The notes beneath the pieces were generated by a model. That model saw only the letters and a list, made by a program, of their open reading frames with translations, did no database searches and was not told where the DNA came from. DNA of 64,000 nt from Octopus vulgaris. Its lineage: Eukaryota. The translations under genes and the position numbers were made by a program. Below, piece by piece: positions 22,228 to 53,840 of this stretch (positions are counted from its first letter, which is position 1; every line of letters begins with the position of its first letter). The stretch is from the NCBI GenBank assembly GCA_951406725.2, contig OX597814.1, positions 97,712,001-97,776,000 on the forward strand, read 5' to 3'.

Positions 22228-25771
<3,544 letters not shown>

Positions 25772-25914
25772 TCATCATCGTTTAACGTCCGCTTTCCATG
25801 CTAGCATGGGTTGGACAGTTCAACTGGGGTCTGGGAAGCCGAAGGCTGCACCAGGCCAGTCAGATGTGGCAGTGTTTCTACAGCTGGATGCCCTTCCTAA
25901 CGCCAACCACTCCG

Positions 25915-26590
<676 letters not shown>

Positions 26591-28368: not shown

Positions 28369-29285
<917 letters not shown>

Positions 29286-35705: not shown

Positions 35706-35741
<36 letters not shown>

Positions 35742-35887
35742 AAAATATTAAAATTACTAAGTCTCTCTAAAAGAGAACAGCGGCAGCGTTCCCGGAAAAT
35801 AATAGTTATCGCCATACTAATATGGCATTCTTATAAAAATAAGAATAAAGAATAAATAAAACCATCGAACAGAGATTGTCGGAAGCG

Positions 35888-35965
35888 ACACCTACTGGCT
35901 GGCTACGCTGCATTGAAAAGGGGCAATACCCCGAAACGTGTCTGTAGCTGCCGGTCAAGTAGTGT
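35888..35965 (+). ncRNA. Type I hammerhead ribozyme, copy 1 (predicted cleavage after GUC at 35942)
   Basis: Stem I GCUGCA/UGUAGC; core UUGAAAA (U3-A8); stem II GGGG-CAAUA-CCCC; GAAA; CGUG; UC; extended stem I with a UAC bulge. Confidence 0.82.
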
Positions 35966-36176
35966 GGAGCGACTGACCTCCCTTGTTCGAAGGTTATATG
36001 GATACAGTTTGTGTATCAAATAGCTAACTTAAGGCGATGGCCTCATGGAGCTAATAAGCGGTCAGCTTTATTCTTATTTTTATAAGAATGCCATATTAGT
36101 ATGGCGATAACTATTATTTTCCGGGAACGCTGCCGCTGTTCTCTTTTAGAGAGACTTAGTAATTTTAATATTTCTA

Positions 36177-36221
36177 TTATTGAAAACAAGTGGATGTATT
36201 CCACCGAAACTAGGTAAATAA
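36177..36221 (+). ncRNA. Atypical hammerhead-like motif at the unit junction (second copy at 36539-36583)
   Basis: UUAUU-GAAAACA-A-GUGGA-UGUAU-UCCAC-C-GAAA-CUAG-GUA-AAUAA; hammerhead topology but a non-canonical core. Confidence 0.45.
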
Positions 36222-36249
36222 AACCATCGAACAGAGATTGTCGGAAGCG

Positions 36250-36327
36250 ACACCTACTGGCTGGCTACGCTGCATTGAAAAGGGGCAATACCCCGAAACG
36301 CGTCTGTAGCTGCCGGTCAAGTAGTGT
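36250..36327 (+). ncRNA. Type I hammerhead ribozyme, copy 2 (predicted cleavage after 36304)
   Basis: As copy 1, with a palindromic ACGCGU stem III. Confidence 0.85.
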
Positions 36328-36611
36328 GGAGCGACTGACCTCCCTTGTTCGAAGGTTATATGGATACAGTTTGTGTATCAAATAGCTAACTTAAGGCGAT
36401 GGCCTCATGGAGCTAATAAGCGGTCAGCTTTATTCTTATTTTTATAAGAATGCCATATTAGTATGGCGATAACTATTATTTTCCGGGAACGCTGCCGCTG
36501 TTCTCTTTTAGAGAGACTTAGTAATTTTAATATTTCTATTATTGAAAACAAGTGGATGTATTCCACCGAAACTAGGTAAATAAAACCATCGAACAGAGAT
36601 TGTCGGAAGCG

Positions 36612-36689
36612 ACACCTACTGGCTGGCTACGCTGCATTGAAAAGGGGCAATACCCCGAAACGCGTCTGTAGCTGCCGGTCAAGTAGTGT
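36612..36689 (+). ncRNA. Type I hammerhead ribozyme, copy 3 (predicted cleavage after 36666)
   Basis: Appears identical to copy 2. Confidence 0.85.
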
Positions 36690-36835
36690 GGAGCGACTGA
36701 CCTCCCTTGTTCGAAGGTTATATGGATACAGTTTGTGTATCAAATAGCTAACTTAAGGCGATGGCCTCATGGAGCTAATAAGCGGTCAGCTTTATTCTTA
36801 TTTTTATAAGAATGCCATATTAGTATGGCGATAAC

Positions 36836-36890
<55 letters not shown>

Positions 36891-50467: not shown

Positions 50468-51724
50468 CAGGGGTTGGACAAAATAATGGAAACATCTAGC
50501 ATCATAATTTTGAAATATCTATAAAACTGTCAAAAGTTTGTTTATTTTTATGTTTTTTTTTTAATTTATTATTAGTGTTGCTTAATATGATTTGCTAAAA
50601 TTGCTGTTTCTTTTCAGATATCATCAGAAAAAGGTAATTAAAATTCATGAAAATGACAGATCAATCAGACTTTCAAAGAGATCAAATTGTTGGTGCTCAT
50701 ATGGTTGGCGCTAGCATAACGAAAACAGGAGAAATGTTTGGTGTATCAAGAAGTACTGTCTTGAAAGTAATGACAGCCTCTGAGAAAGAGGTAAAAATCT
50801 CCTCATCGAAACAAAACTTTGGATTGGGACCATCGGACTCTTACACAAATTATTAGAAAGGATCACAAAAGTACAGCTCCCAAAATTACTGCAGAGCTTA
50901 ATGCCCACCTCAAGAACACAGTTTCCACAAAAACTGTTCACCGGGAACTGCACAAAGCTGGATTTCATGGGAGGGCTGCAATCAGAAAACCACTACTTTC
51001 AAAAGCAAACGTTGCAAATCGTTTAGTGTGGAGTAAAAACCCACAGAATTGGTCCCTAGAGCAGTGGAAGAATGTTATTTTCTTGCACGAGTCATCCTTT
51101 ACTTTATTTCCAACCACAAGCTGTGTATACATGTAGAAACAGCCAAAAGAAGCATTTGACCCAGGCTGCCTTCTTTCAACTGTTAAACATGGAGGAGGAT
51201 CTGTGATGATCGGGGGGGGGGGGGCTATATCTTGGAAATCTGCTGGCCCAATGATTTCTCTTCATGGCAGAATTAATAGTCAAGACTATTTAAGCATTTT
51301 ATCTGATCAAATTCATCCTATGGTTGCGGAACTGTTTACTGAGGGAAACGCAATCTTTCAGGATGATAATGCACCAATTCACACAGCTAAAGTTGTTACT
51401 GAATGGCACAAGGAACATTCTAGTGAAGTTGAACATCTTATCTGGCCACCACAGTCCCCAGATTTCAATATTATTGAACATTTATGGTGCATTTTAGAAA
51501 AACAAGTAAGGAGTCGATATCCCCCACGATCATCACTACAAGAACTAGAGACTACTTTAGCAGAAGAATGGACAAAAATTCCTTTGGAAACAATTCAAAC
51601 TTTGTATGAGTCCATACCTCATAGAATTCGAGCAGTAATTACTGCCAAAGGCAGTCCTACCCTATATTAAAATAAATTTGTTTGAAATTTTAAGGTGTTT
51701 CCATTATTTTGTCCAACTCCTCTG
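50468..51724 (+). mobile_element. Tc1-family transposon with DD36E spacing (pseudogenised transposase 50647-51670)
   Basis: TA|caggggttggacaaaataatggaaaca TIR with an inverted copy at the right end; HTH region, VKHGGGSVM, FQDDNAPIH, WPPQSPDFNIIE; frameshift and stop present. Confidence 0.92.
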
Positions 51725-52105: not shown

Positions 52106-53336
52106 CGAGGGGCGTTCAATAAGTAATGCCCCTGACCCACTTCCCATAGCAGTAGAGCAACGAAACTTGGCACAGTTATTAGTCTTTTTCTACATAGGAA
52201 CCACCCAGAGTTACGCATTTCTCCCATTGTTTGATGCAGCTCTGGAGACCGTTTTTGTAGAAGACCCCAGCTTGGTCCTCCAAACACAACGTGACTTCAT
52301 AAAACAAGGCTGCATCATCTTTCAAAAACAACTTCATGGCTGGGAAGAGGTGAAAATCAGAGGGTGCAAGGTCAAGAGAGTAGGGGGGTGAAGGAGGAGT
52401 TCATAGCCGCACCTGGGAGCAAGCGAGTTGTGAACCGGAGCGTTGTCCTGCAGGAGGAGGATGCCTTTGCTGATCTTGCCCCACCTCTTGATTTTGATAG
52501 CTTCTCTTAATTTCCTCAAAAGTGAAGCATAATAGGCTCCTGTAATTGTGGTACCCTTTGCCAGGAAATCTGTCATCACTACTCTGTCCTGGTCCCAGAA
52601 GACTGTGAGCATGACCTTGCCAGCGGAGGGCTGCACCCATGCCTTCTTTGGAGGAGGTGAGTCATGGTGCTTCCACTGCATTGACTGGGCTTTGGTCTCT
52701 GGGTCATAGTGATGGACCCAGGTTTCATCCCGTGTAATCAGTCTTTTGAAAAATTTTGACTCATCTTCTTGGCACATCTCCAAATTCATCCTCGAGCACT
52801 CGACGCGTTCTTGCTTCTGGAAAGGTGTGAGCAACCTGGGAATCCATCTGGCAGGCACCTTTTGCATATGCAAATGGTCATGAATGATAGTTTCCACAGA
52901 CCTGGTACTAATCTTGACCTCATGGGTTATTTGGCGAATAGTTATGCGTCGATCTTCCAAAATGGCAGCCTCAACTTGACATCAATGGCAGAAGTGGGGC
53001 GACCAGATCTGGAAGCTGTTTCCACAGAGTTACGACCATGTTTGAATTCACGATGCCAGCGTTTTACAAGGTCATATGATGGGGCATCATCACCATAAGT
53101 TACTTTCATTTCATCAAAAGCCTCCCATGGTGTGCGTCCTTTCAAATACAAAAACCGGATCACTGCTCGACACTCAACAGGCTCCATTTCACACTTGACT
53201 CAGTTCAAACACCTGTAAATCAGAGCTGAAATTTACTACTTAATCTATAGAGATATAAATAATTGCACATGCAAAATTTCAGCTAGATCAAACAACGGCA
53301 AGTGGGTCAGGAACATTACTTATTGAACGTCCCTTG
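52106..53336 (-). mobile_element. mariner transposon, full-length but frameshifted
   Basis: TA-flanked ~37-bp TIRs cgaggggcgttcaataagtaatg..ctgacccactt; motifs WIPRLL, ITRDETWVHHYDPE, LLQDNAPVH. Confidence 0.92.
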
Positions 53337-53344
53337 TATATATA

Positions 53345-53840
53345 TCATCATCATCGTTTAACGTCCGCTTTCCATGCTAGCATGGGTTGGACGATTTGAC
53401 TGAGGGCTGGCAAACCAGATGGCTGCACCAGGCTCCAATCTTGATCTGGCAGTTTCTACAGCTGGATGCCCTTCCTAACGCCAACCACTCCGAGAGTGTA
53501 GTGGGTATTTTTACATGCCACTGGCACGGAGGCCAGTCAGGCAGTACTGGCAACGACCTCGCTCAAATGTTTTTACACGTGCCATCTGTACAAGTGCCAG
53601 TAAGGTGACGCTGGTAACAATCATTCTCAAATGGTGCCTTTTACGTGCCACTGGCACGGAAGCCAGTTAGCTGCTCTGGCAACAATCACGCTCGGATGGT
53701 GCTCTTAGCACAAGTGCCAGTAAGGCAACGCTGGTAACAACCACACTCGAATGGTGCCTTTTATGTGCCACTGGCACAGAAGCTGGTTAGCTGCTCTGTC
53801 AACAATCATGCTCGTATAGTGCTCTTTGCACCCTGCTAGC
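53345..53840 (-). mobile_element. RTE-tail SINE-like repeat with an internal duplication
   Basis: catcatcatcgtttaacgtccgctttccatgctagcatggg...; ~120-bp subunit duplicated. Confidence 0.75.

What the first reader, a model, noticed from the sequence alone, without database searches (positions are those of the whole stretch)
35907..35948. Rare U3-A8 compensatory core and palindromic stem III imply dimer-dependent cleavage
Seen: the core is UUGAAAA instead of CUGANGA, i.e. simultaneous C3U and G8A changes. Known: positions 3 and 8 form a tertiary Watson-Crick pair, so the double change preserves it. That argues for selection on function and means CUGANGA motif searches would miss it. Stem III has only 2 bp inside the palindrome ACGCGU, which two tandem copies can complete as a dimeric hammerhead. 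Inference: cleavage is conditional on read-through of two or more units; copy 1 (ACGUGU) may be weaker.
Basis: partly seen in the sequence, partly recalled or inferred. Interest (0 to 1): 0.75.

Follow-up and report, generated by a model that had tools for sequence, protein, structure and literature searches.

The report
Paired self-cutting RNA in jumping repeat
This is one of more than a thousand copies of a short repeat that carries a hammerhead self-cutting RNA motif with an already published core variant; it is predicted to cut well only when two copies pair, and it is likely pasted into TA repeats by Penelope-type retrotransposon enzymes.

Summary
Observation confirmed. Three type I hammerheads (UUGAAAA core, U3-A8; palindromic helix III; Schistosoma-type loop contact) sit in a 2.7 x 362-bp array. 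A 115-bp inverted piece lies at its 5' end, and both outer ends fall in (TA)n. It is a young non-LTR retrozyme family.

Dimer cleavage is well supported in silico. The two-unit RNA folds into the double hammerhead (P 0.98). Across sister families helix III changes sequence but stays self-complementary. Copy 1's ACGUGU is a private CpG-type change that leaves one G.U pair.

'Rare, simultaneous double change' is not supported. U3-A8 is published, is the commonest core in this genome, and looks inherited. Sister families with U3.G8 and even C3.A8 have also amplified, and C3-G8 appears nested at least twice. Insertion ends show a Penelope-like tail (17 of 19 inverted loci), and an intact Penelope-like element with its own U3-A8 hammerhead is present. 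Cleavage and expression were not shown. The scan noted a similar 364-base family before in this genome (e1-8669336). Known kind, with a useful natural series at the 3-8 pair.

The parts
35907..35948 (+). Type I hammerhead, copy 1 (U3 35913, A8 35918; helix III ACGUGU 35936-35941; predicted cut between 35942 and 35943)
   Evidence: sequence; fold; descriptor vs shuffles
36269..36310 (+). Hammerhead copy 2 (helix III ACGCGU)
36631..36672 (+). Hammerhead copy 3 (helix III ACGCGU)
35889..35966 (+). Extended stem I with internal loop UAC (35904-35906) / U (35949); predicted partner of loop II CAAUA (Schistosoma-type tertiary contact)
   Evidence: fold z -3.35; triad described in PMC2632901; contact itself inferred
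35853..36841 (+). Tandem array of 2.7 x 362-bp retrozyme units, ending at unit position about 265
   Evidence: TRF 99% matches
35736..35850 (-). Inverted, 5'-truncated piece (unit positions 214-328) whose outer end is the 'tail' end at 328
   Evidence: 115 nt, 99% complementary to 36066-36180
35708..35738 (.). (AT)n tract at the left insertion junction
36839..36886 (.). (TA)n tract at the right insertion junction
36305..36666 (+). Predicted unit-length RNA released by cleavage at copies 2 and 3 (candidate circRNA precursor)
   Evidence: fold z -6.96; release and circularisation inferred from PMC7229834

Best explanation
This is a unit of a young, genome-wide family of 362-bp tandem non-LTR retrozymes whose type I hammerhead (inherited U3-A8 core) is predicted to cleave efficiently only as a double hammerhead of two units, likely releasing unit-length RNA that would be circularised and likely reinserted into (TA)n by Penelope-like element (PLE) enzymes. 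Shown: motif, array, copy number, conserved self-complementary helix III, covarying stems, insertion architecture, and presence of an intact PLE ORF. Predicted: in a read-through transcript stem I swaps partners (5' arm of copy X with 3' arm of copy Y) and the two ACGCGU palindromes form a 6-bp shared helix III; a lone unit or monomeric circle cannot do this and would be largely protected from cutting. Inferred: circularisation by a host ligase; PLE nicking of both strands in (TA)n and priming at two fixed sites (unit about 265 and about 328), giving the inverted 5' piece and the roughly 62-nt tail. U3-A8 is an isosteric substitute carried by the whole lineage, not a special regulatory device.
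For: Double hammerhead is the minimum-energy fold of copies 2+3 (P 0.98; 0.7 kcal/mol above the free ensemble, against 16.9 for two single folds); a lone unit pays 7.0 kcal/mol. In 11 of 11 adjacent pairs from this and sister families the constrained double fold beats two single folds by 5.7-18.2 kcal/mol. Helix III is a perfect palindrome in 68 of 76 tree rows, in 7 different sequences; 6 more rows are self-complementary with G.U. Within the window's lineage the only amplified alternative to CGCG is CATG (51 of 70 matches), which changes both central bases; single changes are scattered (15 CACG; 20 CGTG of 25; none at unit spacing). In 14 family representatives 97.1% of cells pair and 7 of 13 pairs change on both sides (0/500 shuffles). 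Of 25 window-type loci, 19 have an inversion and 37 of 44 outer 3' ends abut (TA)n; 17 of the 19 have one end at 258-270 and the other at 320-332, like the PLE tail in PMC8557442. An intact 781-aa RT + GIY-YIG ORF ends in (TA)n and carries its own U3-A8 minimal hammerhead. Same build as axolotl HHR_Amex1, which needs dimers (PMC7229834).
Against: No cleavage assay. Expression is not shown: only contigs of guessed kind were available. Unconstrained, the inter-unit helix was predicted for only 2 of 10 sister pairs (P 0.96 and 0.47; the rest <=0.02), and the constrained double fold costs 2-18 kcal/mol in most sisters and 75.6 in one, so the clean fold is particular to this family and the model has no tertiary terms. 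A 6-bp duplex beating a 1-bp hairpin is partly built into the energy model. No blastn homology was found between the unit and 42 GIY-YIG loci apart from separate neighbouring retrozyme insertions, so the PLE partner is not identified. Within-locus units differ about as much as between-locus units (2.56 vs 2.77 differences), which gives no support for rolling-circle copying of one circle. A C3.A8 family has amplified, and PLE reverse transcription in vitro did not need hammerhead cleavage (PMC11167929), so cleavage may be dispensable for spread.
Confidence: 0.75

Rival explanations
1. The tertiary-stabilised hammerhead cleaves adequately as a single unit; the palindrome only speeds it up.
For: The loop I/loop II triad is intact. 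Invertebrate retrozyme hammerheads cleave as monomers at about 0.8 and 0.1 per min (PMC7229834). Nearest-neighbour folding ignores tertiary energy.
Against: Those invertebrate motifs are described as having a more stable helix III; the 1-bp + palindromic-tetraloop type gave 6% in 1 h as a monomer. Central palindrome bases, unpaired in a monomer, covary across families.
Confidence: 0.13
2. The ribozyme is weak or vestigial in vivo; arrays spread by PLE reverse transcription of uncut multimeric RNA, and the core drifts among U3-A8, U3.G8, C3.A8 and C3-G8.
For: A C3.A8 family has 25 of 25 copies with A8 at about 18 loci, 98.3% identical. A family with 319 matches has 79 U3.G8 in the first 100 listed. 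PLE insertion in vitro did not need cleavage. Within- and between-locus differences are similar.
Against: Units 45-60% identical keep the other core bases, stems and palindromy. Window-type and sister A2 units differ at 67 positions, with no change at a conserved core base and 3 in the 42-nt motif (one of the three is private to the copy compared). Paired states far outnumber C3.A8.
Confidence: 0.1
3. Plain satellite DNA with a chance hammerhead-like motif.
For: Rfam gives no hit.
Against: 0 hits in 200 shuffles; covariation across families; dispersed insertions with fixed ends.
Confidence: 0.02

Closest known systems
Metazoan non-LTR retrozymes (Cervera & de la Pena 2020, PMC7229834; passages and Discussion read), especially axolotl HHR_Amex1
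   Same: Tandem 170-400-nt non-coding units, one type I hammerhead each, helix I 6 bp, helix II 4 bp, 1-bp helix III with palindromic tetraloop, loop 1-2 contact, dimer requirement.
   Different: U3-A8 core; sister families with all four 3/8 combinations; PLE-type inverted ends and a tail documented here. Expression and circRNA not shown here.
Schistosoma mansoni PLE minimal hammerheads with U3-A8 (Cervera & de la Pena 2014, PMC4209133; parts 1-2 of 4 read)
   Same: U3-A8 covariation (about 1,300 hits there), palindromic helix III, PLE link.
   Different: Those are minimal motifs, mostly single; this is a full canonical motif with tertiary-contact residues in tandem units.
Penelope-like elements (Craig et al. 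2021, PMC8557442; Frangieh et al. 2024, PMC11167929; passages read)
   Same: Partial tandems, inverted 5'-truncated copy, tail at one end, microsatellite / AT-rich targets, internal initiation, hammerhead.
   Different: No ORF; tail about 62 nt rather than 30-40; no sequence homology to the PLE loci examined.
Li, Clavereau & Pollet 2026 preprint (10.64898/2026.07.22.740005; part 1 of 5 and passages read)
   Same: Proposes that animal retrozymes are non-autonomous PLE derivatives.
   Different: In the parts read its evidence is co-occurrence and pLTR phylogeny; here the evidence is insertion-end architecture, and pLTR homology was not found.

Membership tests
Type I hammerhead ribozyme | Three helices around the conserved core with a Watson-Crick 3-8 pair, A15.1-U16.1 and NUH site | tested here: met
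   U3-A8 accepted as active variant per PMC3088659 section 8
Type I hammerhead ribozyme | Loop I / loop II tertiary-contact residues | tested here: met
   UAC/U internal loop 6 bp from the core and loop II ending in A match the triad in PMC2632901; sequence level only
Type I hammerhead ribozyme | Match to Rfam hammerhead models | tested here: not met
   no hit at gathering score or E<=10; expected for a variant core and very short helix III (inference)
Type I hammerhead ribozyme | Site-specific self-cleavage | not testable with these tools
   needs in vitro assay or raw reads with ends; only contigs were available
Double (dimeric) hammerhead | Self-complementary helix III too short for a monomer, with a second copy in cis | tested here: met
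   22 of 25 sampled loci hold two or more same-strand motifs (sample biased to best full-length hits)
Non-LTR retrozyme | Non-coding tandem unit of 170-400 bp, GC <45%, one type I hammerhead per unit, dispersed copies | tested here: met
   362 bp; GC about 0.43 in an overlapping 233-nt stretch; 183 matches in 40 of 1112 candidates scored; 1375 motif matches
Non-LTR retrozyme | Expressed as linear and circular monomer RNA | not testable with these tools
   no holder on record as RNA; contigs cannot show ends or circles
Non-autonomous Penelope-like element | Partial tandem + inverted 5'-truncated copy + tail at one end + microsatellite target | tested here: met
   features as in PMC8557442
Non-autonomous Penelope-like element | Sequence homology to the pLTR of an autonomous PLE | tested here: inconclusive
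   none in 42 GIY-YIG loci (30 + 12 stretches, from 150 scored of 6136 candidates); only a shared short AT-rich end motif

The most novel reading that the evidence does not exclude
This genome preserves a natural series of the hammerhead 3-8 pair. U3-A8 is the ancestral core of a retrozyme superfamily (and of a resident PLE). The textbook C3-G8 was regained at least twice, once through an amplified C3.A8 mismatch family, and U3.G8 arose about four times. Either double hammerheads tolerate a broken 3-8 pair, or retrozymes retrotranspose through PLE enzymes without needing to cut. In both cases the fixed 265/328 ends mark the PLE priming sites on a minimal non-coding template.
Probability: 0.4. 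Interest if true: 0.62.

Novelty: new variant of a known kind. Interest (0 to 1): 0.42.

Why it matters
The added value is comparative. (1) Thousands of motifs in this genome escape Rfam and CUGANGA searches, so retrozyme counts are underestimated. (2) Amplified families carrying all four 3/8 combinations give ready-made natural constructs to test how strict the 3-8 pair is and whether cleavage is needed for spread. (3) The tail/inversion signature and a co-resident intact PLE make the still-hypothetical 'PLEs mobilise retrozymes' step directly testable in vitro.

Tried and rejected
Rfam: no hammerhead hit. Sequencing runs: no RNA holder on record; 8 runs laid were all contigs, so nothing on expression, ends or circles; the 'goes back 362' joint is expected from tandem DNA. 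An A>G cluster in one contig of run X5 did not recur in three other RNA-guessed runs and has no matched DNA; not used as evidence. Six loci with other C3-G8 motifs (L081-L086) held no PLE ORF. A PLE-linked Pfam accession recalled from memory was not in the library. The retrozyme piece 1.3 kb behind the PLE ORF in L176 looked like a pLTR but is a separate insertion beyond (TA)n. Within- vs between-locus identity did not separate rolling-circle from multimer templates. First tree contained inversion junctions and the trait columns; it was redone (76 of 77 loci, L106 dropped for short coverage; L069 and most overlapping loci left out beforehand). One search had a one-column slip in the structure string, corrected. 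Lunse 2017, Przybilski & Hammann 2007, Martick & Scott 2006 and Nelson & Uhlenbeck 2008 could not be read; they were seen only as reference entries and may already describe U3.G8 or C3.A8 natural variants and their rates. No supplementary files were read; figures S1-S6 of PMC4209133 and PMC7229834 may list similar motifs.

Full report
OBSERVATION. The 42 nt at 35907-35948 read as a type I hammerhead: stem I GCUGCA/UGUAGC, core U3-U4-G5-A6-A7-A8-A9, stem II GGGG-CAAUA-CCCC, GAAA, helix III A-CGUG-U, C17. It recurs at +362 and +724 inside a 2.7-copy array, 35853-36841; units 1 and 2 differ only at 35939. A descriptor with pairing checks gives 3 hits in the window and 0 in 200 shuffles. Rfam finds nothing relevant. 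Stem I continues past an internal loop UAC/U (fold z -3.35 and -3.90). With the loop-II 3' A this matches the U/C/A triad of the Schistosoma hammerhead (PMC2632901, passages).

THE ELEMENT. A 115-nt inverted piece (unit 214-328) precedes the array, and both outer ends run into (TA)n. In the 2.8-Gb own genome a search with the unit scored 40 of 1112 candidates and gave 183 matches, full-length ones 96-100% identical. A tight motif pattern gave 1375 matches, control 0. Of 25 de-duplicated loci, 19 carry an inversion, 22 have two or more same-strand motifs, and 37 of 44 outer 3' ends abut (TA)n; ends cluster at unit 264-269 and 327-328. In 17 of the 19 inverted loci one end is the short one and the other the long one, as in 9 of 12 such loci of a second sample, mostly sister subfamilies. 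Partial tandems, an inverted 5'-truncated copy, a tail at one end and microsatellite targets are described for Penelope-like elements (PMC8557442, passages). A PLE protein cleaved and extended both strands of AT-rich DNA and initiated internally (PMC11167929, passages). The genome holds repeated intact 781-aa ORFs with RT (below the Pfam cut-off, E 1e-6) and C-terminal GIY-YIG. These end in (TA)n, have a tail of about 33 nt, and carry their own U3-A8 minimal hammerhead with an ACAUGU palindrome. No homology between this PLE and the unit was found, so the partner is inferred, not identified. The organism was not established by any search.

DIMER QUESTION. For copies 2+3 the unconstrained minimum-energy fold is the double hammerhead (P 0.98). 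Two single active folds cost 16.9 kcal/mol, and a lone unit's active fold costs 7.0. For copies 1+2, P is 0.88; the helix III duplex is -5.6 against -7.5 kcal/mol, with one G.U. Against: unconstrained, only 2 of 10 sister pairs show the inter-unit helix. Constrained, the double fold beats two singles in 11 of 11 pairs, but often lies far above the free ensemble. The comparative test is stronger. Helix III takes 7 different perfectly palindromic sequences in 68 of 76 rows; 6 more pair with G.U and 2 do not (rows are related, so these are not independent events). In the window's lineage the only amplified alternative is CATG (51 of 70), a double change at two bases that would be unpaired in a monomer. 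Single changes (15 CACG; 20 CGTG, 3 CGGG, 2 CGAG) are scattered. Copy 1 is one of these, likely a post-insertion CpG transition. In print: most metazoan type I hammerheads have a 1-2-bp palindromic helix III and fold as dimers (PMC4209133, parts 1-2 of 4; PMC6765202, passages). Axolotl HHR_Amex1, of the same build, cleaved 6% in 1 h as a monomer and much better as a dimer (PMC7229834, passages and Discussion).

THE 3-8 PAIR. The C3-G8 pair is established (PMC3884650, passages). Natural U3-A8 was reported in 2011 (PMC3088659, section 8) and as about 1,300 motifs in S. mansoni. Whole-genome pattern counts (control in brackets): C3-G8 1651 (111); U3-A8 1450 (177) with stem II starting G-H, plus 1375 (0) under a tighter pattern with slight overlap; U3.G8 641 (184); C3.A8 297 (112). 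The patterns are not identical, and they include PLE motifs and chance matches. Fetched loci show many 353-364-bp families, 45-97% identical to each other, with covarying stems (97.1% paired; 7 of 13 pairs changed on both sides). On a tree of 76 loci with positions 3 and 8 masked, U3-A8 lies on both sides of the midpoint root. C3-G8 needs 2 changes and U3.G8 needs 4; position 3 changes twice and position 8 six times. One C3-G8 clade (97/97) sits with the C3.A8 family (94/92) among U3-A8 relatives. That family is A8 in 25 of 25 matches at about 18 loci. A second family has 319 matches, with 79 U3.G8 and 21 U3-A8 in the first 100 listed. So U3-A8 is inherited and common here, paired states dominate, but single-step intermediates do spread. 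The root is a midpoint, loci come mostly from contig C1, and recombination between families was not tested. A search for hammerhead with 'U3-G8', 'C3-A8' or 'position 3 and 8' returned no paper. The listings of the other searches showed no description of this family, but four key papers could not be read.

MECHANISM. Shown: anatomy, copy number, covariation, end structure. Predicted: read-through RNA forms a double hammerhead and is cut after C17 in both units, releasing a 362-nt monomer (fold z -6.96). Inferred from PMC7229834: circularisation by a host ligase and protection of the monomeric circle. Inferred: PLE-driven insertion. Not shown: cleavage, expression (searches gave contigs only), and rolling-circle copying (inconclusive).

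VERDICT. A real, young non-LTR retrozyme with a known core variant and a known dimer logic. A preprint already argues a PLE origin for retrozymes (10.64898/2026.07.22.740005, part 1 of 5 and passages), and this scan noted a 364-base family with the same core in the same genome (nothing by sequence). New here: the natural four-state series at 3/8 and the tail statistics. Interest 0.42.

Noticed in passing
L107-L114 (e.g. G000:C4:80857193-80857944): A 360-bp retrozyme family with a C3.A8 mismatch core, 25 of 25 matches A8, about 18 loci, 98.3% identical.
   Followed up: partly
L115-L120: A family with mostly U3.G8 core and a U17 cleavage site; 319 matches.
   Followed up: partly
L169-L175: Young PLE family with repeated intact 781-aa RT + GIY-YIG ORF, a second upstream ORF of 400-479 aa in two copies, a U3-A8 minimal hammerhead, a tail of about 33 nt and (TA)n target.
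   Followed up: partly
L127-L138 (CATG subfamily): Sister of the window family with a G10.1.U11.1 wobble at the base of stem II, missed by CGAAA patterns.
   Followed up: no
window 36224-36357, run X5: One contig with a cluster of A>G differences on the ribozyme strand, resembling A-to-I editing; not seen in other runs and no matched DNA.
   Followed up: partly
window 22234-26590 and 28369-29284: A 4.3-kb (AT)n tract, and a (TA)n + 373-nt A-rich tract; may be real or an assembly artefact.
   Followed up: no
window 51137-51667 (+) and 52337-52981 (-): Open frames that resemble Tc1/mariner transposase fragments (resemblance recalled, not tested).
   Followed up: no
window 53590-53831: 65/120-bp GC-richer tandem repeat.
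   Followed up: no
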